Of a stretch of 64,000 nucleotides of DNA, positions 30,303-53,867 are shown one piece after another. This DNA comes from Vulcanimicrobiota bacterium (GTDB taxonomy: Bacteria > Vulcanimicrobiota > Vulcanimicrobiia > Eremiobacterales > Eremiobacteraceae). Made by a program: the position numbers and the translations under genes. How positions within the stretch are numbered: the stretch's first letter is position 1; each line of letters opens with the position of its first letter. The stretch is from the NCBI GenBank assembly GCA_963812135.1, contig CAWETU010000001.1:736001-800000 (forward strand). Reading direction: 5' to 3'. The notes below the pieces were generated by a model that made no database searches, was not told where the DNA came from, and saw nothing but the letters and a program-made list of their open reading frames with translations.

Positions 30303-31531
30303 ACAACAGGGTCTTCATCACCGGCATCGGCGCGATCACTCCCATCGGCATCGGCCGAGAACGGCTCTGGCGCGGCGCCCTTGACGGCAAGCGCGGCGTG
30401 CGCAGCCTCGATCGCTTCGACTCGACGCCGTTTCGCTCGAAAGTCGCGGGTCAGGTCGAAGATTTCGATCCCGCAGCGTTTCTGGAGCGGCGCGCGTTGC
30501 ACCGATCCGAGCGCTTCGCGCAGTTCTCGCTCGCTGCGGCCCGGCTTGCGTTCGAAGACGCGTCGTACGTCCCCAGCGGCGACGACGGTGACTTCGGCGT
30601 CTGGGTTGGCAGCGCGCTCGGCGGCGCGGCATACGGCGAGACCCAAAACCGCAACTTCATCGATCGCGGCATCAAAGCGATCCATCCGATGCTCGCGCTG
30701 TCCGTGTTTCCGGCGGCCGCGTGCTGCAACATCGCGATCACGTTCGGGATTCACGGCCCGACGGTCTCGAACTCGAACTCGTGCGCGGCAGGCGCGGTGG
30801 CGATCGGCGACGCGTTTCGCGCCGTGCGCTCAGGCTATTGCCGGCGCGCGCTCGCCGGCGGCGTCGAGATCCCGCTCACGCCATTGATCTTCGGCGCCTT
30901 CGACGTCATCAAGTCGATGTCGCAACGCAACGCCGATCCTTTGAGCGCGAGCCGTCCGTTCGACGCGGATCGCGACGGCTTTGTGATGGCCGAAGCGGCG
31001 TGTCTCATGCTGCTCGAACGAGAAGAAGACGTGGTCGCGCGCGGCGCGGTCCCGTATGCGGAGATCGGCGGCTTCGGACTGACGAACGACGGCCAGCATA
31101 TGGCGGCGCCACGCGAAGACGGGCGCGAGGCCAAACGCGCGATGCAGCTCGCGATGGCCGACGCGTCAGTCGAGCCGGCGCAGATCGACCACATCAACGC
31201 GCACGGCTCGTCGACGCCGCTCAACGACCCGACCGAGAGCCGCGCCATTCGCGACGTCTTCGGATCGGCTGCCGACCGCATCATCGTCTCCGGCATCAAG
31301 GGGATGATGGGGCATGCGCTTGGCGCGACGGGTTCGGTGGAAGCTGCGTTGTGCGCGCTTGGCTTGCGCGAGAGCCTGGTCGTGCCGACGGTCAATCTGG
31401 AGACGCCCGCGGAAGGCTGCGACTTGCGCTATTCGCCGGCCGTGCCGACGCCGTTGCGCCAAAAGGCGGTGCTGTCGAACAGCTTCGGGTTCGGCGGCCT
31501 CAACGCGGCGCTCGTCTTCAAGGCCGCCTAG
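30299..31531 (+). CDS. Beta-ketoacyl-ACP synthase (FabF/KS-like)
   Basis: Cys-His-His triad: NSCAAG, INAHGSST, MMGHALGA; SNSFGFGG. Confidence 0.92.
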   Translation: MNNRVFITGIGAITPIGIGRERLWRGALDGKRGVRSLDRFDSTPFRSKVAGQVEDFDPAAFLERRALHRSERFAQFSLAAARLAFEDASYVPSGDDGDFGVWVGSALGGAAYGETQNRNFIDRGIKAIHPMLALSVFPAAACCNIAITFGIHGPTVSNSNSCAAGAVAIGDAFRAVRSGYCRRALAGGVEIPLTPLIFGAFDVIKSMSQRNADPLSASRPFDADRDGFVMAEAACLMLLEREEDVVARGAVPYAEIGGFGLTNDGQHMAAPREDGREAKRAMQLAMADASVEPAQIDHINAHGSSTPLNDPTESRAIRDVFGSAADRIIVSGIKGMMGHALGATGSVEAALCALGLRESLVVPTVNLETPAEGCDLRYSPAVPTPLRQKAVLSNSFGFGGLNAALVFKAA

Positions 31532-32838
31532 CCTGGAAGCTTGAGCGCCTTGCAGACGCCTTGCGCGCCCTGCACCTTGCAAAATGAATTCAAGTCGTTT
31601 GCAAACTTCCCAGCCCACGATTCAAACGAATGGCGGAGCGTTTGTGCGGACGACGGATTGCCAAGCGCCAAACCGCTCGTGTTACCGAGGAACGTGCCAA
31701 CCGCGACGTCGTTCTGATAGGTGATGTAAGGGCCGACGGAATTGGGCGCGGATGATGGATTGGGTTGGGGCGCGACGGCCTCGTGGGCGGTCGCGTTTGA
31801 CGCCAGTAATACTCCGCCGAGCGCGATCGGGAAGAACGAGATCGCGGTCGTCTTGTTGCTGCCTGAGATGTTGTCGGACCAGACGTTTGCGAGCGCCGGG
31901 CCTCCGCTCGAATTACAGGTGACGACTTGCGCCGCGTAGTTGGCTTCGCTTGAGCCGTAGATGGTGAAGATGGCGAACGTGCCGTCCACCGTGACCGTCG
32001 AACCGTTGAGCACGACCGCCCCGAGCGTGCCATGACCCGCCGGCGCGTTTTGTCCGACGCCGAATGGGTTGCCCGGGTCGTTGGGCACATACGGATCTTC
32101 AAGACACTGCGCCCGAAAATCTTCGAGCGTCCAATACGACTCGGGAACGACGGCGACGGGATGCCGCGAATTGCACTCCTGCATCGAAATGGCGCTGCGC
32201 GCGCAGACATCGCGCTCGAGCCGATTCGCGATGGTGAAGAGCAGGAACGAGGCGGGATTGTCGACGCTCGATCCCGTCGTAGTGCTGCCGGTCGCCGGCC
32301 CCGAGCCTCCCTTGCTGCCGCCGCCGCCACCACCACCAGCGCTGGGTGGTTTGGACGACGATGAACCGCCGGAAGAACCGCCCGAAGGGCCGGCGCTGGG
32401 GGCGCCGATCGACAAGAGCACGTAGAACGTCGGCTCCTGCGTCGCGATAAGCGGACGCTCCTGCGGCTGACGTCCGAGCACGCCTTCACAGAACTTCAAT
32501 TGTTCCCACAGCGTACGCGGGTCGGTCTGACTTTGGCTCGGAGAGCAAGCGCTCCGAGCCACCGTTTGTCCGGCGAGTGCGGCGCATGCGTTCAGCCGGC
32601 CGATGAGCAGCTGCGCTAAGTACGACTTGACGCCCAGGGGAATAGAATCAGCGGCTCGATAGTTCGGCGAGTCAAAATTGTACACCGCGATGACGTCGTA
32701 GAGATCGCCGGTCGAGCAGATCGAGGAAGACAGCGAGGGCGCCGCGCTTTGCGCCACGGCGCCGTTCGGCACGGCCATGTTCAGCGCAATGGCGATGAGA
32801 CTGCCTGCGGCGACAAAAGCGAAAGGCTTGCGGGTCAT
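31528..32838 (-). CDS. Hypothetical exported Cys-rich protein with Gly/Ser linker
   Basis: Signal peptide; 10 Cys; GPSGGSSGGSSSSKPPSAGGGGGGG linker. Confidence 0.7.
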   Translation of the reverse strand: MTRKPFAFVAAGSLIAIALNMAVPNGAVAQSAAPSLSSSICSTGDLYDVIAVYNFDSPNYRAADSIPLGVKSYLAQLLIGRLNACAALAGQTVARSACSPSQSQTDPRTLWEQLKFCEGVLGRQPQERPLIATQEPTFYVLLSIGAPSAGPSGGSSGGSSSSKPPSAGGGGGGGSKGGSGPATGSTTTGSSVDNPASFLLFTIANRLERDVCARSAISMQECNSRHPVAVVPESYWTLEDFRAQCLEDPYVPNDPGNPFGVGQNAPAGHGTLGAVVLNGSTVTVDGTFAIFTIYGSSEANYAAQVVTCNSSGGPALANVWSDNISGSNKTTAISFFPIALGGVLLASNATAHEAVAPQPNPSSAPNSVGPYITYQNDVAVGTFLGNTSGLALGNPSSAQTLRHSFESWAGKFANDLNSFCKVQGAQGVCKALKLPG

Positions 32839-32857
32839 GAGACGTTGCCTCCCGAGG

Positions 32858-34081
32858 TTAGTCTCTCGATCGTTGCGCCGGCAAGAACCCTGCAAAGTCG
32901 TCCGGCGAAACGTAAAGATCTGCCGCGGTCTTACCGACGAGCTGCAATTCGTCGAGGTGCGTAGCCTCAAACGGAGCAACCGCGCGCTCGTGGATGGCCT
33001 TCAACCCGAGGCGATCTAAACCTTGCCGCGACACATCGACGTTGTAGCGGACATACGTGAAGAGCTTGTCGGCGAGCGGCGCCCGGTTGTCCACGAGAGT
33101 TCCGATCTCGGAATCGAGCGCCTCGCCGTGGCGCGTCCTGCCAAAAACGCGGCACAGCATGTCCTGCTCGACCGCGGCAGCGGAGATCAGCGCGGAGGGC
33201 AAGGACTGCAGGTTGTAGAGCAGATTCATCTCATTTGCCCGCAGGCTCCGGTTGGCGCTCTCGCTCAGCCCGGTTCCCACGGAGACGAGCAACAAGTCCC
33301 GTTCGCCCGGCGGCCAGTGGACCTCATACGGCGGCAGTGTCGCCATGAGAAAGAGCAAGAAGGAAGGGTTGTTATAGACCGTCACGCCGCCGTCGATGAA
33401 AATGAATTGCTGGTCGCCCACATCGATGACCTCGGGCGGGAAGAATACCGGAGCAGCCGTGCTGGCGCGCACGAGTTGCCAGAGCGGTAGGTTCAGGTTG
33501 CAATCAGGCGATTCGAGACTGTTGAACTTCGCTCGCGGGTTGTTCGAGAGCGGCCACGGTGAATCGGTGGAGGCGTTGCGCATGACGATCAGCAGCAGGG
33601 TCCGCAGCTTGTCCGTTCCCAGTGTCGCCTCGCGCCCCGCGTCTTGGCCGATCACCGATTTTATCCGTGCCGCGAGAGCGTTGTGCGTGAACATCGACGA
33701 TGACGTCAAGATGCCCACCGTGCTCAAGAGTTTGGTGGCGGCCGAATCGGGACCGAACCGCCGCGCGGCGCGCAAAAACATGTTCGCAGGATCGAACATG
33801 TCATGGGCGGCGGTTCGAATGATTTCGCGGATCTGCGCTGCCGAGTATCCGAGGGAGACGAGCGTGGCGATGATCGCACCGGCGCTCGTGCCGGCGACGT
33901 AGTCGAAAAAATCCGCCAGGACGAGGCTGTCGCGGCCCGTCGCTTGCCGCAACAGCGTCTCCAAACGCAACAAGAACTCGACGGCGATCAATCCGCGAAT
34001 TCCACCGCCGTCTACCGAGAGAAGCCTCTTCGGACCAGGCGCGGTCAAACGCGCTTCCACCTGCGATGGCACGAACGCCAC
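32858..34081 (-). CDS. Patatin-like phospholipase
   Basis: DGGGIRG oxyanion loop, GTSAG nucleophile, RASTAAP, DGG. Confidence 0.92.
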   Translation of the reverse strand: MAFVPSQVEARLTAPGPKRLLSVDGGGIRGLIAVEFLLRLETLLRQATGRDSLVLADFFDYVAGTSAGAIIATLVSLGYSAAQIREIIRTAAHDMFDPANMFLRAARRFGPDSAATKLLSTVGILTSSSMFTHNALAARIKSVIGQDAGREATLGTDKLRTLLLIVMRNASTDSPWPLSNNPRAKFNSLESPDCNLNLPLWQLVRASTAAPVFFPPEVIDVGDQQFIFIDGGVTVYNNPSFLLFLMATLPPYEVHWPPGERDLLLVSVGTGLSESANRSLRANEMNLLYNLQSLPSALISAAAVEQDMLCRVFGRTRHGEALDSEIGTLVDNRAPLADKLFTYVRYNVDVSRQGLDRLGLKAIHERAVAPFEATHLDELQLVGKTAADLYVSPDDFAGFLPAQRSRD

Positions 34082-34152
34082 GTTCGGTCATGCGGCGCTT
34101 CCCTCTTTCCAACCGGCGGGGTTCGGCGCGTTCGCTCCAGAACGCGGCCACT

Positions 34153-35838
34153 TTGACAGTGCTGCAATCGGAAGCCAAAACCACGAGGGCAGGATTCCAT
34201 GATCTGCCCTTGGTCGTCGGCGTGTCCGGGCATCGCGATCCACCGGCAGACGCCGAACCGCAGTTGCGCGAGCGCTTCGGCGAAGTTCTCGGCGGACTGG
34301 CGCATCGTTACCCGCAGATGCCCTTGCTCGTCCTTTCGGGTCTGGCTGCCGGCGCAGACATCATCGCGGCAGAAGAAGCGCTCGATCGCGGCGTCGCGGT
34401 GCTAGGCTGCCTGCCGATGCCCCAAGCGGAGTACGAAAAGGACTTCTCGCCGGAAGAGCTGCAGCGTTTTCGGCGCGTGCTGCCGCGCTGCTGGGACGTC
34501 ATCGTCGTCGGCACATCGGCCAACCGCGAGCAGAACTACGTCGATGTCGCGACGTTCATCGCCTACTATTGCCATGTGTTGGTCGCCTTTTGGGATGGCT
34601 TACCGGCGCGCGGACCCGGCGGAACCGCGGAGGTCGTCGAGCTGCGCAAAGGCGTCTTGCCGAGCGCGTTGGGCGAGACGCTGGTCGCATATCTGCCCGA
34701 CACCGGCCCGGTCTTTCAGATCGTCACGCCGCGCCGGGGACAGCCGCCGCCGCACGACAGCTTTGCCTTGCACGAGTTCTATCCGCAACGCGAGGCCCTA
34801 ACCGCACGCGATAAAGAACCCGGGACCTCGACCGGCCGGCGCGAGTTCGAAAGTGCACTGGCGCGGCTCGAGCGCTTCAATCGCGACTTAGGTACGCACG
34901 CGCCCGATGCAAAAGCGTTCACGCTGGCCGATTTTCGCGATCGCACGGACGCGGCCGCGAACAAGCTGCAAGTCGACACGTTGCGATCGGTCCAGAGCGT
35001 CTTCATAGCTACGGCGCTCGCCGCCGCCGCGCAATTGATCTTCCCGACTGACGGCTCATTCAATATTCCAAGCTGGCTCGGCATCGGCATACGCATAGGC
35101 TTTCTCATCATCGCCGTGCTCGTGCTGGCGATCGCGAAGCGCAGCGATTACGAAAATCGCTATCAAGACTACCGAGCCATCGCCGAGGCGCTTCGCGTGC
35201 AGTGCGCGTGGTGTTGCGCCGGCCTGGGCAACCGATTGGTCGAAGCGTCGTATTTGCAGATGCAGCAAAGCGAGCTGGAATGGATCCGGCTGGCGCTGCG
35301 AACGATGTACCTGATCACCGGGGCCGGCACTCCGTCGCCTGACGACTCCCCGACACATCCCGAGTGTCTACGCTGGATCGACAGCCAGATAGAGTATTAC
35401 GAGAGATCGGGGCGGCGCGAGGAACGGCAGATGCGATACGCGAGATGGGCGATGATCGCGCTACCCGTCGCAGGTGGCGTCGTCTCGGCCAGCGCGGGAG
35501 TCCTGGCCTTCATGGTCTCACACAAGGTGCTACTCGTACCGCCCGCGCAACTTGCCGACACGCTACGCGTCCTGACGTATTTGGGCACGATGCCGTTTGC
35601 GCTCGGCGGCATGCTCGCGCTGTGGATCCGCTTCTACGTCGAGCAGCGCGGATTCGCCGAGAACACGCGGCGCTACCACCACATGTACGCGGTCTTCAGC
35701 GCAGCCAAGCGGCGCCTTGTGGAACGGGCCCGCGATCCGCGCAAAGTGCTGGAAGAACTCGGCCATGAGTCGCTTTCCGAACACGCGGAGTGGCTGATCT
35801 TGCATCGCGAGCGGCCGCTGGAGTTCGTCCACACCTAA
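34153..35838 (+). CDS. SLOG-like domain fused to two SLATT-like 2TM modules
   Basis: VGVSGHRD, SGLAAGAD, VAFWDG...GGTAEVV; two TM pairs followed by YQDYRAIAEALR and LSEHAEW; start uncertain (34066-34159). Confidence 0.7.
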   Translation: MTVLQSEAKTTRAGFHDLPLVVGVSGHRDPPADAEPQLRERFGEVLGGLAHRYPQMPLLVLSGLAAGADIIAAEEALDRGVAVLGCLPMPQAEYEKDFSPEELQRFRRVLPRCWDVIVVGTSANREQNYVDVATFIAYYCHVLVAFWDGLPARGPGGTAEVVELRKGVLPSALGETLVAYLPDTGPVFQIVTPRRGQPPPHDSFALHEFYPQREALTARDKEPGTSTGRREFESALARLERFNRDLGTHAPDAKAFTLADFRDRTDAAANKLQVDTLRSVQSVFIATALAAAAQLIFPTDGSFNIPSWLGIGIRIGFLIIAVLVLAIAKRSDYENRYQDYRAIAEALRVQCAWCCAGLGNRLVEASYLQMQQSELEWIRLALRTMYLITGAGTPSPDDSPTHPECLRWIDSQIEYYERSGRREERQMRYARWAMIALPVAGGVVSASAGVLAFMVSHKVLLVPPAQLADTLRVLTYLGTMPFALGGMLALWIRFYVEQRGFAENTRRYHHMYAVFSAAKRRLVERARDPRKVLEELGHESLSEHAEWLILHRERPLEFVHT

Positions 35839-35950
35839 GCTCGCACCGCTTCGGTGGTTCGGCGACGGCCTTAGTCCCAGGACTCGCCCACGGGGTCATG
35901 GAAAAGGCCGCACTGAGGGCCCCTGCGTTTAGTTTATGACGTTTTAGTTT

Positions 35951-37471
35951 ATGCCTTTCCAGATCTTCGTTTCCTATGCGCGCAATGATGATTTGCCGCC
36001 GTTAGACGGCGAAGGCAAAGGCTTTGTCACGACCCTTCTCAAGCACCTCGAGTTCCATTTCACCTGCTTCGGCGAACCGACCCCGGTCGTGTGGCGCGAC
36101 AAGCGCGCGATCGCGCGCAGCGAACAGTTCGACCCTATCATCGAAAAGGGCATTCAGGAGTCGCAGCTGCTCCTCGTGGTGCTGTCCAACAACTGGATTC
36201 ACCGCGAGTTCTGCCGGCGCGAGCTCGATATGTTCGCGCAACGCTGGCACAAGGAAGGTGACGACGGCGTCAAGCGGCGGATCGTCGTCGTCGGCAAAAA
36301 TTACATCGAGCCTGCCGCGCGACCGCCGCTCTTGCAGGGGCAGGAAGGGTATTTATTCTACGCCCCGGACGACGAGAACCCGAGCCGCTATCGCGAGTTC
36401 TTCGTGCGCGGGAAGGCGCGTGAAGAATTCCACGAACACACGCAGGAACTCGCCGAGGACATCTGGCGACGCGCCTGCGAGCACGAACAAGTAGCTCCGC
36501 CCGCGTCCGGTCTCGCCGGCGCCGGCTGGGTGCCGGTGCAATCGAGCGGCAGAAAGATCTACCTGGCCAAGCCCGCCGCCGACATGCGCGCGGCATACAC
36601 CCGCCTCGTGGACGAATTGCGCCAGCGCGGATATGTGGTCGAGCCGTCGCCTGAAGCCGACATCCCCGCGGACAGCAGCGCGGCAGACTTCCTTCGCAGT
36701 TCGCTTGAAGGCACGGAGCTCTCGATCCATTTGCTGGGCGACAAGGCTGGTTGGGCGCCCGAAGACTGCGAGCCGATCGTGCCGCTGCAGTTGAAGCTGG
36801 CTGCCCAGGCGCAATCGCGCCGCATCATCTGGGCGCCGAAGATCCTCGTCGACGAACACGAGCACGCGCATGCTTCGAAGGCACGCGACCCGTTCGCCGT
36901 CCTCGACAAATTCGATCGCAAGCTCGACAACGACACGATCGACGGCAGTGAGACCAGCGCGTTCGCGCAGTTCGTCGTCCAGCATCTCGACAAGAACGCG
37001 CCGCCCGTGCCAGAAATCGAGTCGATCGACGCAAATGCCCGCGTGTATCTCTACCATCGGCCCGAAGATACGCAATACGCCGTCAAGATCGCAACGGTGC
37101 TCGCCGAACGCGGCATACAGCCGGTCTTCCCCGCGTTCGAAGGCGATCCGGCTGAGCTGGCCGCGCTCCACCGGCGGGAACTTGCCGAATGCGACGCGGT
37201 CGTGCTGTGTTGGGCCAACGCCGCCGAAGTGTGGGTCAAGAGCCAGGCGCGCGAACTCAAAAATTGGCGCGAGCTCGGCCGCGACCATGGTTTTGCGTGC
37301 CGGGGTTTGGTCGCCGGACCGCCTCCGGGTCAGCGCAAGGATCTCCTCGTGCAGTTGCCGCCGCGCAACGAAATCGACGTCGTGGTCGATCTGACCCAGT
37401 CGGAAGACTTGACGCCGGGGGCGCTCGACCCGCTCATCCGCGCCACCCAATCGCCGCAGGACGCCGCCTAG
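35951..37471 (+). CDS. TIR-domain protein with two further TIR-like domains
   Basis: IFVSYARND...LVVLSNNW...FCRRELDMF (catalytic Glu); middle KIYLA...ELRQRGY...SIHLLG; C-terminal VYLYHRPED...ECDAVVLCW. Confidence 0.8.
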   Translation: MPFQIFVSYARNDDLPPLDGEGKGFVTTLLKHLEFHFTCFGEPTPVVWRDKRAIARSEQFDPIIEKGIQESQLLLVVLSNNWIHREFCRRELDMFAQRWHKEGDDGVKRRIVVVGKNYIEPAARPPLLQGQEGYLFYAPDDENPSRYREFFVRGKAREEFHEHTQELAEDIWRRACEHEQVAPPASGLAGAGWVPVQSSGRKIYLAKPAADMRAAYTRLVDELRQRGYVVEPSPEADIPADSSAADFLRSSLEGTELSIHLLGDKAGWAPEDCEPIVPLQLKLAAQAQSRRIIWAPKILVDEHEHAHASKARDPFAVLDKFDRKLDNDTIDGSETSAFAQFVVQHLDKNAPPVPEIESIDANARVYLYHRPEDTQYAVKIATVLAERGIQPVFPAFEGDPAELAALHRRELAECDAVVLCWANAAEVWVKSQARELKNWRELGRDHGFACRGLVAGPPPGQRKDLLVQLPPRNEIDVVVDLTQSEDLTPGALDPLIRATQSPQDAA

Positions 37472-37474
37472 CAA

Positions 37475-40400
37475 ATGCGACCGTTTCCCGGACTACGGCC
37501 GTTTGATTTCGAAGACCGCGAGTTCTTTTTCGGCCGTGAGGACCAGATCTTTTCGCTGTACCGGCTGCTCGAGCACAGCCGGTTCATCGCAGTGGTCGGC
37601 AGCTCCGGCAGCGGGAAATCGTCGCTCGTGCGCGCCGGGCTGCTGCCGGTCATAGAAGAGGAAAGTCAAGGCGATGGCGGGCGCAAGTGGCGTTTCGCCA
37701 CCTTGCATCCAGGCGACGCGCCGGTCGCGGCCCTCGCTTCGGCGATCACGTCGCTGGCCCAAGGCGCCGATGAGCACGCAGAGATCAGGCACGAGCGCAC
37801 GCTCTTCGCGTTGCGCCGGTCGAGCTTCGGGCTGAGCAAGGCGGTCGACGACATCGGCGATCTGTCGGGCAAATCCGTATTGCTCGTCGTCGATCAATTC
37901 GAAGAACTGTTCCGTTACGCGACGAGCGCGACGCGCGACAGCCGCGGTAGCGCGCTCTGGCGCGACGAGGCAGCCAACTTCGTTCAATTGTTGCTCGAAG
38001 CGACGCGCAGCCGGTCGAGCTCGATCCACGTCCTCATCACCATGCGCTCGGACTTCATCGGTGATTGCGCGCAGTTCCACGGACTGCCCGAAGCGGTCAG
38101 CGCCGCGCAATTCCTCGTGCCGTCGCTCACGCGCGACCAACGGGAAGACGTCATCCGCAAACCAGTGGAGAAAGCCGGCGCAACGATCGATTCGACATTG
38201 GTCGAGATGCTGCTCAACGATGCCGGCAGCGAGACGGATCAATTACCAGTCCTGCAGCACCTCTTGTCGCGGTTATGGGATCGAGCGCAACCGGATGCCG
38301 CCGGCAACCGGCATCTCGGCCTGGACGAATATCGCGCCATCGGCAGCATCACCGGCGCGCTGTCGCAGCACGCCGATGAGGTCATGGCATCGTTGCCCGG
38401 ACTCGAGCTTGCGGTCGAGCAGACTTTTCGTGCGCTGAGCGAGGTCGATTCGGAAGGCCGCGCCACACGCCGCGCGCTGCCATATTCTCGTCTGCTTGCG
38501 GAAACGGGTGTACCTGAGGCCGACCTCGTGCGCGTGCTGGACCGCTTTCGCGCCGAAGACTGTTCGTTTATCTTGCCGCCGCCTGCCGCCGTGCCGGTGC
38601 TGCGCGGTGCCGCGCGCGTCGACGTCGTGCATGAGGCACTCTTACGCCGCTGGGAGCGGATCAGCGCCGACAAGCCGCACGTGCTCGACGGGCGGATGCA
38701 AACCGGGTGGCTAAACGCCGAGGCCGCCGACGGCAGATTCTACCGCGCGCTGCTGGCGTTATTGGAGACCGGCTCTGCCGCGACGGCGATGACGCTGCCG
38801 CTTGATCAAGTCGAAGCGCGTTGGGACTGGTGGATGTCGCGCCCGCGCACGGCGGCATGGGCCGAGCGCTATGGCGGCCGCCTTCCCAGCGTCGAGAAAC
38901 TTTTCCAGGATAGCCTTGCAGCGCTTGCGACCGAGCAAAAACGGGAAGAGGAAGCCGAACGCCGCGAACGCGAGCAAGAACGGCGCGAGATCGAAACGCA
39001 AGAAGCCGCAAAACGCGAGCGCCTCGAGCACCAAGCCGAGGTCGACCGCATGCGCGTGGAGTCGGCACAACGCCTCACGCAGCGCAGCCGCATCGCTGCC
39101 GCGGCGATGCTGGTCGTCGCGGTCCTCGCGATCGCATCGGCAGTCTTTGCCTTTCAAGAGAAAAGAGCAGCTGACGCGGGCGCACGGGCCGCGGACGCGC
39201 GGGCGGCGGCTGAAGCAGCACTGGCCACGGCACGGAAGCGAATGGCGGATTTGGGAACCGTGGCCCAAGTCGCGGCGAAGCACGCCCAGCATGAGGCGAA
39301 CGTCGCGCAGCATGAGGCGAACGTCGCCACCACCGCGCTCACCGCCGCGGAACAGCAGCGTCAGAACGCGATCGTTCAGCGAAATAATGCAAATAACCAG
39401 CGTACGATCGCGCAGGATCAGACCGCGCGAGCGCTTGCGGCGAGATCCCAAGTCTTCATGCAACGCGGTCGACAAGCATTGCTTGACGGCGACGACAACA
39501 GCGCGGCGCTCTTGCTTGCCGCCGCGTACCAAGGCGATTCATCGGATCCCGTCGTGCAATCGCTTCTGCGCCAAGCACTGGCCAAGCTGCAGATCCGGCC
39601 GACGTCCATCGACGCGCACAACAATGGATTCATCACCGCACTCGCGGTCGATCCGCATAGCCAGCGCGTTGCGACGGCGAGCACCGATGGATCGGTGAAG
39701 CTTTGGAGCGTCTCCGGCCGCCCGATCCAATCATTCCACGATCAAAACGACGTCATCACCGGGCTCGCCTTCGATCCATCCGGGAAGTACCTCGTCAGCG
39801 TCGGCCGTGACGGCACGGCGAAGCTGCACGATCTCGCCGGCCTGACCACCGGTTCGGATCCTCCCGCGATCGCATTGCTCGATGCGAAAGACAAACTCGA
39901 AGGGCACGTCGGGCGGATCAATTCAGTCGTTTTCAGTCACAACGGTGCGCGCATCTTGACATCGGGCAGCGACGGCATGGTCAAACTGTGGAATGCGGCC
40001 GACGGTAAGATGATCGCCGAATGGAGCGGTGCGTCGCCCGGCGTCGCGATCAACGACGCGATATTTAGCCGCGACGACCAGATCATCGCCGCGTGCGCCG
40101 CCGACGGGTCGGTCACGGTTTGGGACCTGACCGGCAAACAGATCAACTCGAAGACCGTCACCTCGAAGAGCCCGCTCGTGCATCTGGCGATCTCACCCAA
40201 CGGCCGGACGGTGGTCGCTGGTGCGCTCGACGGAGCGATCATCGCATTCGACTTTAACGCGCTCGCGTCGCACGAATCCAGCTATAGTCCGCCTGAGTGG
40301 CATTACCAGCATCAGGCGATCAACGCGCTTTCGTTCGACGCGACCGGCAAACGGGTGTTGAGCGGGAGCGCGGACGGCACAGTCGTTCTGCTCGACGCGG

Positions 40401-41818
40401 CGAGCGGCAGGCCGCAAGTGACGATCGCCCCCCGACCTGGTGCGCCCGCGGTCTTGACCGCCTCGTTCGATCCCGCCAGCAACGGGTTCGAGGCGACGTA
40501 CGCCGACGGCTCGCTCAATCTGTGGACGCAAGAAGGCGATCCGTTGGTGATGCTGCACGGACCCGTTGCAGTGGAAGCGCGATTCGTTCCCGACGGCAGC
40601 GCGCTTGTGACCGGAAGCGATCACGGCATCGTCGATCTGTGGCCCTTGCCGGTCACATTGAGCAAGCTTGCGGCTTCGCATCGCGCAGGCGTCGAATCGA
40701 TCGAGTTCGATCATGCCGGACACATGCTGACCGCCAGTCAAGACGGCACAGCCGCGCTGTGGCAAGCCGGGGAACAACCGCAACTCGAACGCGTTTTGCC
40801 GCACTCGCCGGGTTCGGCGTGGGTCGTCGCGGCGCGCTTCAGCAGGGACGGCAGCCGCATCGTCACGATCGGCGGCGCCACGGCGAAGATCTGGGACCTC
40901 CAGTCGGCGACCCCGCTGGCGACGATCCACACGACGGCGCAGAACAAACGTTTCATTCAAGCCGAATTCGTCGGGGGCAGCCACAACGTCATACTCGCGC
41001 AAACCGACATGGATCCGGCGACGCACGTGTACGAGACCAACGGCTGGAGGGTGTGGTCGAGCAACGGCCCGCGAGAGATCGCAAAGCAGCCCGGTTACCA
41101 ATCCGACATCCGGGAGCTGGTCCTGACGGATGACGGGAAGTACACGCTTTCAGTCAGTCAAGACGGCTACGCGTTCGTCTACGACACGAACGGACATTCG
41201 GATAACTATCAGACGTGGAAGGACGCCGCCGAGGCGATCGCCCTCGGAGACCGTTTCGTGCTTGGCGAGGCCAACGGAAACCTGCACATCATATATCCGA
41301 CTGACGCAGAGAGCCGCGGCGAGTGGTCGAGCAATGACGCGCGCGTTCTGACGCTCGCCCTATCGGCGGACCACAAGTGGCTCGTCTCTGGAGGCGCGGG
41401 CGGATCTCCGGGCGCGATCTGGGATCTCACGCAGCAACGGCATTCGCACGTTTCGCTCGGCGGCGGCGCCGGATCGATCGAATCGGCATCGTTCTCTCCC
41501 GGCGATGCGCGTTTTCTCACGGCGATTTTCTCCGACGGAACGGTGCGGTTGTGGGATCGCGAGTCGGGAAATGTCCTGGCGTCGGCGTCCGTGCCGGGCG
41601 CGCACGCAACCGCGGCGGCGTTCACACCGGACGGGTCGGCGATCATCATCGGCTCCGAGGACGGAGGCATGTATGTCTGGCGCATTCGCGGTGGCCTACC
41701 GAGCCCGAGCGACGCGGCTGCGCTTGCGCTGCGCGAGACGAACCATTCGGATATCTCCGATCCGCTGATGACCCAGGCCGTATTCACCTTGCAGCAGGCA
41801 GCGCCGCGTGCGAACTGA
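37475..41818 (+). CDS. nSTAND1 NTPase - coiled coil - TM - coiled coil - WD40 repeat protein
   Basis: PFPGLRPF..FFGRE, GSSGSGKSS, LVVDQFEELF, ITMRSDF, LPVLQ, VVHEALLRRW; one TM; many WD40-like repeats. Confidence 0.9.
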   Translation: MRPFPGLRPFDFEDREFFFGREDQIFSLYRLLEHSRFIAVVGSSGSGKSSLVRAGLLPVIEEESQGDGGRKWRFATLHPGDAPVAALASAITSLAQGADEHAEIRHERTLFALRRSSFGLSKAVDDIGDLSGKSVLLVVDQFEELFRYATSATRDSRGSALWRDEAANFVQLLLEATRSRSSSIHVLITMRSDFIGDCAQFHGLPEAVSAAQFLVPSLTRDQREDVIRKPVEKAGATIDSTLVEMLLNDAGSETDQLPVLQHLLSRLWDRAQPDAAGNRHLGLDEYRAIGSITGALSQHADEVMASLPGLELAVEQTFRALSEVDSEGRATRRALPYSRLLAETGVPEADLVRVLDRFRAEDCSFILPPPAAVPVLRGAARVDVVHEALLRRWERISADKPHVLDGRMQTGWLNAEAADGRFYRALLALLETGSAATAMTLPLDQVEARWDWWMSRPRTAAWAERYGGRLPSVEKLFQDSLAALATEQKREEEAERREREQERREIETQEAAKRERLEHQAEVDRMRVESAQRLTQRSRIAAAAMLVVAVLAIASAVFAFQEKRAADAGARAADARAAAEAALATARKRMADLGTVAQVAAKHAQHEANVAQHEANVATTALTAAEQQRQNAIVQRNNANNQRTIAQDQTARALAARSQVFMQRGRQALLDGDDNSAALLLAAAYQGDSSDPVVQSLLRQALAKLQIRPTSIDAHNNGFITALAVDPHSQRVATASTDGSVKLWSVSGRPIQSFHDQNDVITGLAFDPSGKYLVSVGRDGTAKLHDLAGLTTGSDPPAIALLDAKDKLEGHVGRINSVVFSHNGARILTSGSDGMVKLWNAADGKMIAEWSGASPGVAINDAIFSRDDQIIAACAADGSVTVWDLTGKQINSKTVTSKSPLVHLAISPNGRTVVAGALDGAIIAFDFNALASHESSYSPPEWHYQHQAINALSFDATGKRVLSGSADGTVVLLDAASGRPQVTIAPRPGAPAVLTASFDPASNGFEATYADGSLNLWTQEGDPLVMLHGPVAVEARFVPDGSALVTGSDHGIVDLWPLPVTLSKLAASHRAGVESIEFDHAGHMLTASQDGTAALWQAGEQPQLERVLPHSPGSAWVVAARFSRDGSRIVTIGGATAKIWDLQSATPLATIHTTAQNKRFIQAEFVGGSHNVILAQTDMDPATHVYETNGWRVWSSNGPREIAKQPGYQSDIRELVLTDDGKYTLSVSQDGYAFVYDTNGHSDNYQTWKDAAEAIALGDRFVLGEANGNLHIIYPTDAESRGEWSSNDARVLTLALSADHKWLVSGGAGGSPGAIWDLTQQRHSHVSLGGGAGSIESASFSPGDARFLTAIFSDGTVRLWDRESGNVLASASVPGAHATAAAFTPDGSAIIIGSEDGGMYVWRIRGGLPSPSDAAALALRETNHSDISDPLMTQAVFTLQQAAPRAN
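39287..39328 (+). repeat. 21-bp tandem duplication (QHEANVA x2) in the coiled-coil stalk
   Basis: CAGCATGAGGCGAACGTCGC(G/C) twice. Confidence 0.9.
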
Positions 41819-43520
41819 GCGCTTCGGGCGAACCTTTGCCCTGCTTGCCGGCGTCGCGCTCGTATCGTGTTTGATCTGCGCACCGGTGCGAGCGTCGAGC
41901 GTACCCTTTGTGTTCACCAATGGCAATCTGCTCATTGATTTCAGCGATCTTACCACGCGCGGCGGACTCCGCATGGGGGCCTATCGCACCTATAACTCGT
42001 GGAACACCAACCTCATGGGCAGATACGGCGACGGTTGGGAAACGTCATCCGAGAGCTATCTCGTCGTTCAGGCGGACGGCTCGATCGTCGTGCACGAATT
42101 CGGCGGCGGCGCCAACAATTCGTTTACGCCGACGTCACTCGGCCGCCGCAATGCGACGGATATACTCGACGAGATCATGCGCGCCGCGCAGACGACGGGA
42201 CACTTCGGCAGCGATGCGGACCGCGCCGCGTACGAACACTGGCTCCAGAGCGACGGCAACGAAGAGGACCAGTGGCAGCATTATGTCGACCTCGGCTTGA
42301 TAAAACGGCCCGATCCCCCGGTCGGTCAGACGTTCTTCAGCAGTCAGTTCTACACCGAATACTTGACGCGGGTACCCGAAGGGTACCAACGGGAACGCCG
42401 ATTTCCAGGCAGCGTGTATTTCCAGGCCTTCAACGAGATGGGCAAGATGACCCGATGGTGGGATGCCAACGGCGATTTCATCGCGATCGACTTGACAAAG
42501 GACGGCAACTACGCGCAAGCGTCCGACAATTGGGGCGATCGATTTACGTTTTCGACGACCACCGCCGGACTCGTCACCGGCATCAGCGACTCGCAACACA
42601 TCGTGCGCTATCACTACCAAGCGGCCGCTAAGCCCTACACCGGCTCCGACCTCATGTCCGTGGACATCGACGGCAAGGTGACGCGTTATGGTTACGACGC
42701 GAAAAACCGGCTGATCGCGATTTGGTATGCCGACAACACCGCCATGCACATCACATATGATGATCTCGGGCGAGCGGCGAGCGTCAACGATGCGGACGGT
42801 ACCGTGACAAGCTATCGTTACACCATGTGCGCCACGCCGGCGTCAACCCAATGCACGTTTGAAAAAGACACGCACGCTCCCAACGGTCAGACCCACAGCG
42901 ACGTGACCGCGTTCTCGTATGACGCGGGTGGGCACAAAGAGAAAGACGTCGAGACATACGACGGCGCAGTCATCAAGACGACGGCGTATGACGGTAAGGG
43001 TCTCATCGCGTCGGTGACGACGCCGCAGGGAACGACCGAATTTGGGCGCGATTACCTTAATCGCGTGAACTTCGCACGCGTGCCGAGCGGAACGACGTAC
43101 GCGTGGCAGTACGATCCGGCGAGTCGCAGCGTCTCAATCCTCACGCGCACGACGAAAGACGGCGTCGTGGTGGAGCATTTTCAATACGATCCAAAATTCA
43201 ATCTCGTCCGGGCGTACGACAGTGCCGGCCATGACTTCTCAATCGACCACGATGCACACGGGCGTGTCGCGTCGGTCAGCGGCGGCGAGATCAGTTTGAA
43301 CTTCACCTTCTCGGATGCGCGCGCAACCAGTCCGGACAGCGTCGCGCTCGACGGGGTAGGCTCGGTGAGTCTTTCCTATGACGCCAACGGCGCCGTCGCC
43401 AAGGCGCAAAGCGCGGGCGGCGTTGAGGTCGTCGCGAAAGTCAGGGCCGTGCTGAAATCTGTTGACGACCTTATCGGGGATGCTTCTTTCCATGTGGTCA
43501 CGCTGCCCGCCGGCACATAG
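41808..43520 (+). CDS. Secreted YD/RHS-repeat protein with DUF6531-like N-terminus
   Basis: Signal peptide; RTYNS...GRYGDGW; YGYDAKNRL, YDDLGR, YDAGG repeats; no RHS core or toxin tip visible. Confidence 0.8.
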   Translation: MRTERFGRTFALLAGVALVSCLICAPVRASSVPFVFTNGNLLIDFSDLTTRGGLRMGAYRTYNSWNTNLMGRYGDGWETSSESYLVVQADGSIVVHEFGGGANNSFTPTSLGRRNATDILDEIMRAAQTTGHFGSDADRAAYEHWLQSDGNEEDQWQHYVDLGLIKRPDPPVGQTFFSSQFYTEYLTRVPEGYQRERRFPGSVYFQAFNEMGKMTRWWDANGDFIAIDLTKDGNYAQASDNWGDRFTFSTTTAGLVTGISDSQHIVRYHYQAAAKPYTGSDLMSVDIDGKVTRYGYDAKNRLIAIWYADNTAMHITYDDLGRAASVNDADGTVTSYRYTMCATPASTQCTFEKDTHAPNGQTHSDVTAFSYDAGGHKEKDVETYDGAVIKTTAYDGKGLIASVTTPQGTTEFGRDYLNRVNFARVPSGTTYAWQYDPASRSVSILTRTTKDGVVVEHFQYDPKFNLVRAYDSAGHDFSIDHDAHGRVASVSGGEISLNFTFSDARATSPDSVALDGVGSVSLSYDANGAVAKAQSAGGVEVVAKVRAVLKSVDDLIGDASFHVVTLPAGT

Positions 43521-43534
43521 AACCCCTCACAGCT

Positions 43535-44713: not shown

Positions 44714-44714
44714 G

Positions 44715-44770
44715 TTTACTTTGCCTCACAAAGTCAATGTCTTGCTTTACTTTGTACCACAAAGTCAATG
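44715..44770. promoter_or_regulatory. Tandem palindromic operators upstream of the creD-like gene
   Basis: Two 25-bp direct repeats TTTACTTTG-N5-CAAAGTCAATG with a 31-bp period. Confidence 0.75.
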
Positions 44771-44821
44771 GCAGCGCAAGAGCGAAGTTGACGCTCCGAG
44801 GCTTTCCGACGACGATTTCGG

Positions 44822-46093: not shown

Positions 46094-46193
46094 GGGAACT
46101 CTCCAATCTTGACCCGCTTGATACAAGAAACGGCTTGCGGGCACGGGTACGTTTACCCTCCACTTCGCGGGCCTACGCGCGGTCCGTACTATA

Positions 46194-47428: not shown

Positions 47429-47590
47429 GTAGCCGCGCGGTTCGCGCGCGAAAGACGCATCGCCTGGTGTGCCCGACGCTGCTGGCCACCAGATTCCAAG
47501 CAGCATCCTACGATGCGCGACTCCGATCGTGCACATAACTATAAGAAGAACGGCTCCCGCGCTCCCGCGGATTGATGCCGGGCGAATCGC

Positions 47591-47616
47591 TCATCCGAGG
47601 TTCATCGTGGTTCGTT
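47591..47616 (+). promoter_or_regulatory. Candidate SigK-type ECF promoter for the DUF4331 pair
   Basis: TCATCC-N16-CGTT resembles SigK-group CATCC/CG elements; divergent from the ECF gene. Confidence 0.4.
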
Positions 47617-47652
47617 AGGCGAGTGCACCCTTCTCGTCTAGGAGGCTATTTG

Positions 47653-48447: not shown

Positions 48448-48461
48448 GAGGTTTGAAACAC

Positions 48462-53773: not shown

Positions 53774-53867
53774 GACTTGACCGACGTTTGGTTCGCCGCT
53801 CACATGAATCCTTGGGACAAACGGCGCGGGATAGGCGCGCATGCGACTCATGACGAAACCCGGCATT

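What the first reader, a model, noticed from the sequence alone, without database searches (positions are those of the whole stretch)
31528..43520. Candidate NLR-like signalling/immune locus: patatin <> SLOG-SLATT, triple-TIR, nSTAND1-TM-WD40, secreted YD protein
Seen: co-oriented SLOG+2x2TM, TIR(x3), STAND-WD40 and YD-repeat genes (TIR-STAND gap 3 nt; STAND-YD overlap 11 nt), divergent from a patatin and a Cys-rich exported protein. Known: TIR NADases make signals read by a SLOG domain in type I Thoeris; SLATT 2TM domains and patatins are effectors of nucleotide-signalling defence; STAND NTPases are pattern receptors (Avs/NLR). Inference: a receptor -> TIR signal -> SLOG-gated membrane effector or phospholipase circuit that does not match the named Thoeris, CBASS or Avs layouts I know.
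Basis: partly seen in the sequence, partly recalled or inferred. Interest (0 to 1): 0.85.

Follow-up and report, generated by a model that had tools for sequence, protein, structure and literature searches.

The report
TIR–STAND–SLOG-pore immune island
A 12-kb accessory gene island in a soil bacterium encodes what looks like an innate-immune circuit: a membrane-spanning NLR-like switch, a TIR signalling enzyme, a nucleotide-gated membrane pore and a lipase. Its logic is known from Thoeris defence, but this wiring has not been described.

Summary
The six genes are real, intact and at the stated coordinates. Compared with same-genus genomes they form one 12-kb insertion. Patatin, TIR, nSTAND1-WD40 and RHS/YD are confirmed by Pfam. 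The SLOG domain is confirmed by a confident AlphaFold model whose best match is YpsA. Two 2TM SLATT modules follow it. "Triple TIR" is only partly right: domain 1 is a true TIR with an invariant Glu, domain 2 is DrHyd/ThsB/DUF4062-like, and domain 3 is a generic flavodoxin-like fold.

Gene linkage is strong:
- Of 38 SLOG-SLATT loci with at least 5 kb on both sides, 26 have a TIR gene within 5 kb, of at least five architectures.
- Of the same 38, 17 have the patatin next door.
- 45 of 49 phylum genomes with this TIR protein also carry SLOG-SLATT.
- The order SLOG-SLATT, TIR, nSTAND1-TM-propeller recurs on a Caballeronia plasmid.

The STAND protein has a conserved TM helix, so its WD40 propellers should lie outside the cytoplasm. 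The YD and Cys-rich proteins carry export signals.

Best reading: a Thoeris-like TIR-to-SLOG-gated pore system with an NLR-like transmembrane sensor. It is a new variant of a known kind. No biochemistry was possible. The scan met a similar system earlier on other DNA (e1-3922196).

The parts
31528..32838 (-). Exported Cys-rich protein. The ORF runs to 32979; the likely start is the Met 47 codons in. It has a signal peptide, a Gly/Ser linker and 10 conserved Cys. No known family.
   Evidence: no Pfam hit; hydrophobic N-terminus; Cys conservation; local HMM hits in 20 of 63 loci, mostly beside the patatin; Atlas: no usable hit.
32858..34081 (-). Patatin-like phospholipase, CapV-like. DGGGIRG, GTSAG and DGG motifs are intact.
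   Evidence: PF01734 5.8e-24; PADLOC phospholipase effector PDLC00758 9.4e-33; CBASS_lipase 3.5e-26, 92 bits, under the cut-off of 200; motif residues invariant in 23 sequences.
34082..34197 (.). Divergent intergenic or 5' region between patatin and SLOG-SLATT. Its extent depends on the true SLOG-SLATT start.
   Evidence: homologues start near residue 45 of the ORF. No sigma-70-like site was found here.
34198..34770 (+). SLOG domain of the SLOG-SLATT protein (ORF 34066-35838). It is YpsA/DprA-like, with conserved GHRD, GLAAGAD and GxGGT motifs.
   Evidence: AF2 pLDDT 90.4; YpsA E 2.6e-4, TM 0.64 on the target; invariant motifs.
34942..35655 (+). Two 2TM SLATT/DUF4231 modules (aa 293-385 and 438-530) with the invariant YENRYQDYR motif between them. 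This is the predicted pore-forming part.
   Evidence: DUF4231 27.7 bits, over the cut-off; SLATT_3 and SLATT_1, under their cut-offs; TM segments.
35951..36481 (+). TIR3 protein, domain 1: a bona fide TIR domain with invariant Glu91 (36221-36223).
   Evidence: S79, C88, E91 invariant in 109 sequences; profile hits to solved TIRs; RPP1 TIR Z 13.8, rmsd 2.4, 138 aligned.
36545..37006 (+). TIR3 domain 2: a DrHyd/ThsB/DUF4062-like Rossmannoid domain.
   Evidence: MilB Z 11.6, RCL Z 11.2, ThsB 6lhy Z 11.2; homologue in L049: DUF4062 4.6e-7; no Pfam hit for the window's own copy.
37031..37450 (+). TIR3 domain 3: a flavodoxin-like domain, only weakly TIR-like.
   Evidence: TIR_2 2.5e-4, 22 bits, under the cut-off; receiver, B12-binding and deoxyribosyltransferase folds, Z about 10.5, i.e. 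generic; hhalign finds no significant likeness to D1 or D2.
37481..38665 (+). nSTAND1 NTPase domain of the 1447-aa protein (37475-41818). Walker A is GSSGSGKS; Walker B is LLVVDQFEE.
   Evidence: PF20703 4.9e-87.
39086..39166 (+). Single transmembrane helix (aa 538-564). A charged coiled coil precedes it and an Ala/Gln-rich coil follows.
   Evidence: Kyte-Doolittle 2.72; conserved in 12 of 13 intact homologues; also present in the Caballeronia homologue.
39608..41647 (+). WD40 beta-propeller region, predicted to lie outside the cytoplasm.
   Evidence: WD40 1.9e-60 and many propeller models, aa about 712-1391. The topology is inferred from the single TM helix and the charge bias seen in the sequence printed.
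41808..43520 (+). Exported short YD/RHS-repeat protein with DUF6531. It has no toxin tip and no DPxGL motif.
   Evidence: (RHS_core matches only positions 502-714 of 1261); (follows the WD40-type STAND gene in 7 other loci).

Best explanation
This is a Thoeris-like TIR-signalling conflict (probably anti-phage) island built from two linked modules.

Sensor and signal module. The nSTAND1 NTPase is anchored in the inner membrane by one TM helix. Its WD40 propellers face the periplasm, where the exported YD-repeat protein may act as co-receptor or bait. On a trigger the NTPase oligomerises and brings copies of the separate three-domain TIR3 protein together. TIR3 is translationally coupled to the STAND gene. 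Its domains 2 and 3 probably dock on the NTPase. Its domain-1 TIR cleaves NAD+ into an ADP-ribose-derived messenger.

Effector module. The messenger binds the YpsA-like SLOG domain of the SLOG-2xSLATT protein. That protein then opens or assembles a four-helix-per-subunit membrane pore. The adjacent CapV-like patatin degrades membrane lipid as a second effector. The outcome is growth arrest or death of the cell.

Shown here: the domain identities, the intact catalytic and NTP-binding motifs, the TM helix and export signals, the island status, and the recurrent gene linkage.

Inferred: every activation step, the nature of the messenger, the trigger, and the roles of the YD and Cys-rich proteins.
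For: Island status: the six genes are one insertion between KAS and CreD relative to same-genus genomes G227 and G134.

Block conservation: the whole block recurs in the same order in L009, L010, L011, L013 and L014.

TIR next to SLOG-SLATT:
- 26 of 38 loci with at least 5 kb on both flanks have a TIR ORF within 5 kb.
- There are 35 TIR ORFs in 499 kb near the gene, 3 in 379 kb farther out in the same loci, and no other hit in the own 2.79-Mb genome.
- The TIR partners are of at least 5 architectures: TIR3 plus nSTAND1-TM; fused TIR-NB-ARC-TPR; CHASE2-TIR or other N-terminal-domain TIR; a 368-aa TIR; and a tandem TIR.
- The TPR-S sensor domain also recurs nearby.

Genome level: 45 of 49 TIR3-positive genomes carry SLOG-SLATT, against 73 of 352 TIR3-negative ones. 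Of the 26 pairs on one contig, 24 lie within 25 kb.

Cross-phylum: the same core order occurs on Caballeronia plasmid pSBC2-4.

Folds and motifs: SLOG; TIR with invariant Glu; Walker A and B; patatin catalytic residues; TM helix conserved.

Distribution: patchy, typical of an accessory gene. 118 of 401 genomes in the phylum have it, and 2 of 6 other genomes in the own genus.

Divergence pattern: the predicted extracytoplasmic parts diverge fastest among the five orthologous blocks. RHS is 40-53% identical and WD40 50-62%, against TIR3 at 80-82%.

Literature precedent (passages read): SLOG reads 3'cADPR in type I Thoeris, and a SLATT effector responds to cADPR in type VII. YpsA-clade SLOGs are tied to cADPR sensing, and SLATT is predicted to be an ADPr-derivative-regulated pore.
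Against: - No enzymatic, ligand-binding or phage-challenge data exist for any member.
- 6 of the 38 well-flanked loci have the patatin but no detected TIR within 5 kb. One of them, L032, has a TIR3 gene cut off by the locus end. SLOG-SLATT can therefore sit without a nearby TIR.
- 73 genomes have SLOG-SLATT but no TIR3-family gene, although other TIR types were not counted genome-wide.
- TIR domains attached to STAND proteins are usually read as NAD+-depleting effectors, not signal makers. Yirmiya et al. discarded them for that reason.
- The SLOG fold also occurs in enzymes such as LOG and in DNA binders such as DprA, so a sensor role is not proven.
- No fused TIR3-STAND protein was found (weak evidence).
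- The periplasmic topology rests on a hydropathy scan only.
- Related genomes are not independent, so the association statistics overstate.
Confidence: 0.6

Rival explanations
1. Two independent systems sit side by side. One is an Avs-like STAND sensor whose TIR partner kills by depleting NAD+, with no messenger. The other is a self-contained SLOG-SLATT plus patatin module that senses something else, for example falling NAD+, free ADPR or a phage nucleotide, much as TRPM2 is gated by ADPR.
For: - The SLOG-SLATT plus patatin pair occurs without a detected TIR within 5 kb in 6 of 38 well-flanked loci.
- 73 genomes have SLOG-SLATT but no TIR3.
- STAND-linked TIRs are treated as NADase effectors in the literature.
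- TRPM channels appear among the structural matches of the SLOG-plus-membrane model, at low probability.
Against: - Adjacency of SLOG-SLATT to TIR genes of at least five unrelated architectures, in several phyla, is hard to explain without a functional link.
- 45 of 49 TIR3 genomes carry SLOG-SLATT.
- The six genes move as one insertion.
Confidence: 0.2
2. The circuit is the same, but the trigger is not phage. It is a periplasmic surveillance or programmed-death system that responds to envelope damage, interbacterial toxins or kin and non-kin cues. The exported YD and Cys-rich proteins serve as extracellular recognition parts.
For: - The TM helix places the WD40 propellers outside the cytoplasm.
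- The YD and Cys-rich proteins have export signals.
- CHASE2-TIR and FecR-domain partners in other loci also point to extracytoplasmic sensing.
- nSTAND1 systems were described as conflict and apoptosis-like systems of multicellular-habit bacteria (passages).
- No homologue was found in 50,697 phage records.
Against: - Every experimentally studied TIR-signalling system cited in the passages I read is anti-phage.
- The patchy accessory distribution and plasmid carriage fit defence islands.
- Nothing here identifies the ligand.
Confidence: 0.15
3. The genes are neighbours by chance and share no function.
For: None beyond the lack of experimental data.
Against: - Each family has a single copy in 2.79 Mb, all within 12 kb.
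- The block is conserved in 5 other loci with different flanks.
- The core order recurs across phyla.
- The insertion has exact boundaries.
Confidence: 0.02

Closest known systems
Type I Thoeris (ThsB TIR + ThsA SIR2-SLOG)
   Same: A TIR protein is encoded beside an effector whose SLOG domain is the presumed receptor for a TIR-made ADPR derivative. The TIR partners vary while the effector stays constant.
   Different: The effector output is a 2x2TM SLATT membrane module, not a SIR2 NADase. The SLOG is nearest to YpsA, ShosA and DprA by fold. The TIR protein has three domains and is paired with a membrane-spanning STAND NTPase.
Type VII Thoeris (TIR + SLATT effector ThsH, canonical cADPR; Yirmiya et al. 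2025 preprint, passages read)
   Same: A TIR gene sits next to a SLATT-type membrane effector that is thought to oligomerise into a membrane-breaching assembly on ligand binding.
   Different: ThsH is described as a SLATT protein whose ligand pockets form between SLATT protomers. Here a separate N-terminal SLOG domain and two SLATT modules are fused, and a STAND sensor and a patatin are added. Whether ThsH relatives include SLOG fusions could not be checked, because the supplementary tables are closed.
Type III Thoeris (several TIR genes + SLOG effector with NucS nuclease; described in passages; primary paper not held)
   Same: A SLOG-domain effector of the SMF/DprA-like kind, encoded with TIR proteins.
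   Different: There is no nuclease domain. The C-terminal part is four TM helices. There is one TIR gene rather than several.
nSTAND1 effector-NTPase-sensor conflict systems (Kaur, Iyer, Burroughs, Aravind 2021, eLife; passages read) and bacterial NLR-like Avs/bNACHT proteins
   Same: An nSTAND1 NTPase (PF20703, 293 bits) with C-terminal repeat sensors and a TIR effector; the NLR logic of sensor, switch and effector.
   Different: The TIR is a separate translationally coupled protein. A conserved TM helix separates the NTPase from the repeats. A dedicated SLOG-SLATT reader implies that the TIR signals rather than only depleting NAD+.
CBASS with CapV patatin or 2TM effectors
   Same: A patatin related to the cGAMP-activated phospholipase and a nucleotide-sensor-2TM effector architecture.
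   Different: No CD-NTase/SMODS cyclase is in the island. TIR is the only candidate signal generator.
Eukaryotic parallels: plant TNL receptors and the ADPR-gated TRPM2 channel
   Same: It works like TIR plus NB-ARC-type switch plus repeats making NAD-derived signals, and like a SLOG-like domain attached to a membrane channel. TRPM chains appear among the Foldseek hits.
   Different: There is no sequence-level relationship beyond domain superfamilies. The TRPM matches have low probability (0.16-0.54) and high rmsd. This is an analogy, not membership.

Membership tests
Thoeris (generic: TIR signal generator + signal-activated effector) | TIR-domain protein with the catalytic Glu | tested here: met
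   TIR_2 1.5e-15; E91 invariant in 109 sequences; RPP1 TIR Z 13.8; profile hits to solved TIRs.
Thoeris (generic: TIR signal generator + signal-activated effector) | Effector with a nucleotide-sensor domain encoded next to the TIR gene, recurrently | tested here: met
   SLOG fold; TIR within 5 kb in 26 of 38 well-flanked loci; 45 of 49 genomes.
Thoeris (generic: TIR signal generator + signal-activated effector) | TIR makes an ADPR-derived messenger on infection, the effector is activated by it, and phage protection follows | not testable with these tools
   Needs NADase/LC-MS assays and plaque assays.
Type I Thoeris | SIR2 domain fused to the SLOG domain | tested here: not met
   No SIR2 hit in any of the six proteins. 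The C-terminal part of the SLOG protein is helical and membrane-spanning.
Type III Thoeris | SLOG effector with a NucS-type nuclease domain, plus several TIR genes (as described passages) | tested here: not met
   No nuclease family hit; one TIR gene. The definition is taken from secondary passages, because the primary paper is not held.
Type VII Thoeris | SLATT-domain effector (ThsH) next to the TIR | tested here: inconclusive
   DUF4231 is over its cut-off; SLATT_1 and SLATT_3 are under theirs. No ThsH sequence or model was available to compare. The PADLOC 2023 library has no such model.
CBASS | CD-NTase (SMODS) cyclase in the operon | tested here: not met
   No such family among the six island proteins or the immediate flanks.
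CBASS CapV phospholipase (NCBIfam NF041079 equivalog) | Score over the curated cut-off; patatin catalytic Ser-Asp dyad | tested here: inconclusive
   The dyad and oxyanion motifs are present and invariant. The score is 92 bits against a cut-off of 200. It is a relative, not an equivalog.
nSTAND1 NTPase family (PF20703) | Match over the gathering score; Walker A and B motifs | tested here: met
   293.5 bits against a cut-off of 27.1; GSSGSGKS and LLVVDQFEE.
Avs/AVAST-type NLR-like defence proteins | Single soluble polypeptide: N-terminal effector, STAND NTPase, C-terminal sensor | tested here: not met
   The TIR is a separate ORF with a 3-nt gap. A TM helix lies between the NTPase and the WD40 region. 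There are no Avs hits in PADLOC.
Rhs/YD polymorphic toxins | Full RHS core shell, DPxGL cleavage motif and a C-terminal toxin domain | tested here: not met
   Only 570 aa. RHS_core matches positions 502-714 of 1261, at 40.7 bits against a cut-off of 2000. There is no DPxG[LWF] motif and no toxin family hit.
SLOG superfamily | Rossmannoid SLOG fold with a Gly-rich loop after strand 1 and a GGxGT-like motif | tested here: met
   Foldseek: YpsA E 2.6e-4 (TM 0.64 on the target), then DprA, LOG and MCP. GHRD, GLAAGAD and GxGGT are conserved. The assignment of these motifs to the pocket is recalled, not computed.

The most novel reading that the evidence does not exclude
The island encodes an outside-in bacterial innate-immune receptor. 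A STAND/NLR-type NTPase spans the inner membrane and reads a periplasmic cue through WD40 propellers, helped by an exported YD-repeat partner. It then switches on a cytoplasmic TIR enzyme. The NAD-derived product of that enzyme opens a SLOG-gated membrane pore and unleashes a lipase. One prokaryotic circuit would thus combine Toll-like-receptor topology, plant-TNL-style TIR signalling and a TRPM2-like ADPR-gated channel. If so, STAND-linked bacterial TIRs, currently set aside as mere NAD+ depleters, would be signal generators.
Probability: 0.3. Interest if true: 0.8.

Novelty: new variant of a known kind. Interest (0 to 1): 0.62.

Why it matters
If the reading holds, it adds a Thoeris-type system in which the SLOG sensor is wired directly to a SLATT pore, with a patatin as a second effector.

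It would also show that NLR-like TIR-STAND proteins in bacteria can act upstream of a dedicated signal reader, as plant TNLs do, rather than only depleting NAD+.

The conserved TM helix between the NTPase and the repeats would make this a rare case of a STAND switch that senses outside the cytoplasm. How bacterial TIR systems perceive infection is still an open question.

The family is common in Eremiobacterota, found in 118 of 401 genomes searched. It also occurs on a plasmid of a cultured Caballeronia strain, which gives an experimentally tractable entry point.

Tried and rejected
- Complex prediction of SLOG-SLATT with the patatin: no verdict (score 0.00, under the mark). It is not evidence either way.
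- Search for longer, fused forms of TIR3: none among 8000 candidates. The tool itself calls this weak evidence.
- hhalign between the three TIR3 domains: no significant likeness, so an internal triplication of one TIR is not supported.
- Profile of SLOG-SLATT against PDB sequences: no hit at E <= 1.
- ESM Atlas for the Cys-rich protein: no usable hit.
- tblastn of SLOG-SLATT against 50,697 phage records: no match.
- Flanking direct or inverted repeats that could mark an integration site: only short, low-identity chance-like pairs. There is no integrase or tRNA at the island ends; the only tRNA is at 59065-59148.
- Promoter and terminator scan of 31000-45000: counts at or below the shuffled expectation, so it gives no information on operon structure.
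- Long open frames around SLOG-SLATT in six further genomes were examined as possible fusions. The N-terminal extensions overlap separate upstream or divergent TIR genes in other frames, so they are frame artefacts. One locus, L072, has an unexplained 471-aa C-terminal extension with no Pfam hit.
- RNA evidence: contigs from two soil metatranscriptome studies hold 90-99%-identical pieces of all six genes, one of them bridging the STAND-YD junction. Contigs from RNA libraries do not prove transcription, and parts without cover mean nothing.
- Papers not held: Burroughs et al. 2015 NAR and van den Berg et al. 2024 (not found). The bioRxiv supplements of Yirmiya et al. 2025 are closed.
- Considered and rejected: type I Thoeris, type III Thoeris, CBASS, Avs and Rhs-toxin membership (see Membership tests).

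Full report
OBSERVATION

The window is G000:C1:736001-800000 of a 2.79-Mb, 64% G+C genome. The source names of its homologues place it in Eremiobacterota/Vulcanimicrobiota.

- 31528-32979(-), Cys-rich protein
- 32858-34081(-), patatin
- 34066-35838(+), SLOG-SLATT
- 35951-37471(+), TIR3
- 37475-41818(+), nSTAND1-WD40
- 41808-43520(+), YD/RHS protein

The TIR-STAND gap is 3 nt and the STAND-YD overlap is 11 nt. All six show the GC3-rich codon pattern of real genes in this genome.

Pfam confirms Patatin (5.8e-24), DUF4231 (3.8e-6, over its cut-off), TIR_2 (1.5e-15), nSTAND1 (4.9e-87), WD40 (1.9e-60), RHS_repeat (2e-20) and DUF6531. PADLOC and NCBIfam relate the patatin to the CBASS phospholipase effector, but below equivalog level. 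NCBIfam also gives two separate SLATT hits at aa 293-377 and 438-478, both under their cut-offs. These coincide with two pairs of hydrophobic helices.

DOMAINS IN DETAIL

SLOG-SLATT. Using an alignment of 105 homologues, AlphaFold2 gives a confident model (pLDDT 90.4, pTM 0.88). Its N-terminal alpha/beta domain matches the SLOG superfamily: YpsA 2nx2 (E 2.6e-4, TM 0.64 on the target), then ShosA, DprA, the Moco carrier protein and LOG. TRPM channel chains appear at low probability. The family conserves GHRD, GLAAGAD and GxGGT motifs in the SLOG part, and an invariant YENRYQDYR motif after the second TM helix. No solved structure is related at sequence level.

TIR3. This protein is not three TIRs.
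- Domain 1 (aa 1-177) is a true TIR. S79, C88 and E91 are invariant in 109 sequences. Its profile hits solved TIRs. The RPP1 TIR aligns at Z 13.8, rmsd 2.4, 138 residues.
- Domain 2 (aa 199-352) resembles MilB (Z 11.6), RCL/DNPH1 (Z 11.2) and ThsB (Z 11.2). A homologue scores as DUF4062. The window's own copy has no Pfam hit.
- Domain 3 (aa 361-500) is a generic flavodoxin-like fold with only a sub-threshold TIR_2 hit.
- Profile-profile comparison finds no significant likeness among the three domains.

STAND protein. It has Walker A GSSGSGKS and Walker B LLVVDQFEE. It also has one strong TM helix at aa 538-564. That helix is present in 12 of 13 intact nSTAND1 homologues next to SLOG-SLATT genes and in the Caballeronia homologue. 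The Arg-rich side is N-terminal, as the sequence printed shows. The roughly 880 C-terminal residues (coiled coil plus WD40 propellers) are therefore predicted to be extracytoplasmic.

Exported proteins. The YD protein has a signal peptide with a lipobox-like LVSC, no DPxGL motif and no toxin domain. The Cys-rich protein has a signal peptide and ten conserved cysteines.

Patatin. It keeps DGGGIRG, GTSAG and DGG, and these residues are invariant in 23 sequences.

IS THE GROUPING MORE THAN CHANCE?

Each of the six families has exactly one hit in the 2.79-Mb genome, and all six hits are here.

Relative to same-genus genomes, the block is an insertion. In G227 and G134 the ketoacyl-synthase gene is followed directly by the CreD-like gene. 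The six genes (about 31532-43560) therefore make up the extra DNA. G071 and G087 lack CreD as well. No flanking repeats, integrase or tRNA mark the ends.

A scan of one genome per species found 62 loci encoding SLOG-SLATT relatives. The full six-gene block, in the same order and with different flanks, is in L009, L010, L011, L013 and L014.

With local HMMs, the 38 loci that have at least 5 kb on both sides (window included) break down as follows:
- 26 have a TIR ORF within 5 kb.
- 17 have the patatin within 3 kb.
- 11 have both.
- 6 have neither: L028, L058, L061, L063, L069 and L070. Of these, L058 carries a DUF4062-nSTAND1-Sel1 protein and L063 a TPR-S protein.

All 63 loci together give patatin 26, TIR 30, both 14 and neither 21. 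Of the 21 with neither, 15 have short flanks.

TIR ORFs number 35 in 499 kb near SLOG-SLATT and 3 in 379 kb farther out in the same loci.

The TIR partners are diverse:
- TIR3 with nSTAND1-TM-(WD40, TPR or unassigned)
- fused TIR-NB-ARC-TPR proteins (L024, L036, L038, L039, L041, L049, L072, L075)
- CHASE2-TIR with a FecR-TPR partner (L030), and other proteins with a C-terminal TIR (L027, L057, L073, L076)
- a 368-aa TIR (L018-L022)
- a tandem TIR (L052)

In most loci that have it, the patatin sits immediately downstream and co-oriented. Only in the window's nearest relatives is it inverted together with the Cys-rich gene. In L015 and L017 a trypsin-like peptidase occupies that slot instead.

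GENOME-LEVEL TEST

Among 401 genomes of the phylum, 118 carry SLOG-SLATT and 49 carry TIR3. The 2x2 table is: both 45, TIR3 only 4, SLOG-SLATT only 73, neither 279.

Of the 45 genomes with both, 26 have the two genes on one contig. Of those 26, 24 are within 25 kb and 12 within 2.5 kb.

These genomes are related, so the Fisher p-value printed overstates the case. The counts include the unpublished genomes G177, G247 and G329. Leaving them out changes each count by at most three.

The distribution is patchy: 2 of 6 other genomes in the own genus, 39 of 80 in genus g13, and none of the 72 genomes outside the two families f1 and f2. This suits an accessory, horizontally moving system.

CROSS-PHYLUM CONFIRMATION

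On the mobilizable plasmid pSBC2-4 of Caballeronia sp. SBC2 (Betaproteobacteria), three genes follow each other in the same order and orientation as here:
- a DUF4231/SLOG-SLATT protein (577 aa)
- a TIR3-like protein (539 aa, 29% identical over 94% of the query)
- an nSTAND1-TM-WD40-like protein (1190 aa)

They sit beside an IS3 transposase. Upstream lie an MFS transporter, a signal-peptide protein and a TPR-S-TM-cyclase protein. There is no patatin or YD gene. The conserved core is therefore SLOG-SLATT + TIR3 + nSTAND1-TM-propeller, with patatin/Cys-rich and YD as accessories.

MECHANISM (INFERRED)

The constant SLOG-SLATT effector beside ever-changing TIR proteins is the signature of Thoeris, in which the TIR makes an ADPR-derived messenger that the effector reads. 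Passages I read give the precedents:
- 3'cADPR binds the SLOG domain of ThsA in type I (Yirmiya et al. 2025 preprint, passages and sections 5 and 32).
- A SLATT effector answers canonical cADPR in type VII (same source).
- YpsA-clade SLOG domains are tied to cADPR sensing, and SLATT is predicted to be an ADPr-derivative-regulated pore (Iyer et al. 2022, passages).

I therefore propose the following chain:
1. A cue is sensed by the extracytoplasmic WD40 region, perhaps together with the YD protein.
2. nSTAND1 oligomerises in an NTP-dependent way.
3. TIR3 clusters, and its domain 1 converts NAD+ into a messenger.
4. The messenger binds the SLOG domain, and the SLATT pore forms.
5. The patatin acts as a second membrane-attacking effector.

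Consistent with sensor surfaces under pressure, the predicted external parts are the most divergent among the five orthologous blocks. RHS is 40-53% identical and WD40 50-62%, against 71-76% for the NTPase half and 80-82% for TIR3.

Pieces of all six genes at 90-99% identity occur in contigs of two soil metatranscriptome studies. That does not prove transcription.

COMPARISON WITH WHAT IS KNOWN

The island is not any of the following:
- Type I Thoeris: there is no SIR2.
- Type III Thoeris: that type has a SLOG effector with a NucS nuclease, as described in passages. The primary paper is not held.
- CBASS: there is no cyclase.
- Avs: the TIR is separate and the protein spans the membrane.
- An Rhs toxin.

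It shares the SLATT effector idea with type VII, but adds a dedicated SLOG domain, a second SLATT module, a STAND sensor and a lipase.

nSTAND1 TIR/NTPase/repeat systems were described computationally by Kaur et al. 2021 (passages). TIR-SLATT neighbourhoods were noted by the same group (passages). From recall only, the name SLATT ('SMODS and SLOG-associating 2TM') implies that SLOG-SLATT fusions were noted in Burroughs et al. 2015, which I could not read.

Yirmiya et al. removed Avs-type TIRs from their survey as presumed NAD+ depleters, and they list 29 putative effector types in a figure and table I could not see. One of these may be this effector.

Full-text searches turned up no description of this combined layout in the listings and passages I saw:
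- SLATT+SLOG+TIR: 14 papers
- nSTAND1: 6 papers
- DUF4231: 11 papers
- further combinations

An earlier agent of this scan reported a membrane-anchored TIR/nSTAND1/WD40 receptor with a secreted partner, divergent from a SLOG-patatin operon, in another genome (e1-3922196). My independent TM and export-signal analysis agrees with it.

VERDICT

It is untested biochemically. I rate it a new variant of a known kind: Thoeris-like TIR signalling with NLR-like sensing. The most interesting open point is the apparent outside-in, membrane-spanning STAND sensor, together with the implication that STAND-linked bacterial TIRs signal to a dedicated reader.

Noticed in passing
window 53841-56638 (+): The aconitase gene is split over two overlapping ORFs in different frames. 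ORF 53841-54992 covers Pfam Aconitase positions 12-272. ORF 54353-56638 covers positions 317-463 plus Aconitase_C. This points to a frameshift near 54.99-55.13 kb, either real or an assembly indel.
   Followed up: no
window 47572-49049 (+): A DUF4331 protein is likewise split into two ORFs. ORF 47572-48447 covers the profile start and ORF 48414-49049 covers profile positions 232-421. This is a second likely frameshift or assembly indel.
   Followed up: no
L071 (Caballeronia sp. SBC2 plasmid pSBC2-4) 4638-6404 (-), 6401-7792 (-), 7847-9289 (-): Upstream of the plasmid's SLOG-SLATT/TIR3/nSTAND1 trio lie a TPR-S-TM-guanylate-cyclase-like protein, a signal-peptide protein and an MFS transporter. 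An MFS gene also sits divergently next to SLOG-SLATT in L027, L037 and L039. TPR-S is a predicted reader of TIR products, so the cyclase protein may be a further effector.
   Followed up: partly
L015 11728-12864 (+); L017 11862-13067 (+): A trypsin-like peptidase (Trypsin_2) occupies the slot just downstream of SLOG-SLATT that the patatin fills elsewhere. This suggests an exchangeable second effector.
   Followed up: no
L050 6732-8117 (-); L025 9443-13692 (-); L016 1576-2775 (-); L033 7517-8641 (+): Some related loci look decayed. The nSTAND1 gene is in three or more pieces in L050. NTPase and WD40 are on separate ORFs in L025. The patatin ranges in L016 and L033 contain internal stops.
   Followed up: no
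L072 3234-4646 (-): In genome G216 the SLOG-SLATT frame continues for about 470 further residues with no Pfam hit. This is a possible C-terminal fusion of unknown nature.
   Followed up: partly
window 689-3994 (+): FliF/YscJ-family ring protein and a FliI/EscN-type ATPase: a flagellar or type III export cluster at the start of the window.
   Followed up: no
window 44822-47536 (-): A DinB_2 + FGE-sulfatase protein (EgtB-like by recall), followed by an RskA-type anti-sigma factor and an ECF sigma factor, lies just right of the island. FGE-sulfatase domains also occur fused to NACHT and reverse-transcriptase proteins next to a distant SLOG-SLATT relative in L063.
   Followed up: no
window 59065-59148 (+): This tRNA is the only Rfam match at gathering threshold in the window.
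   Followed up: no
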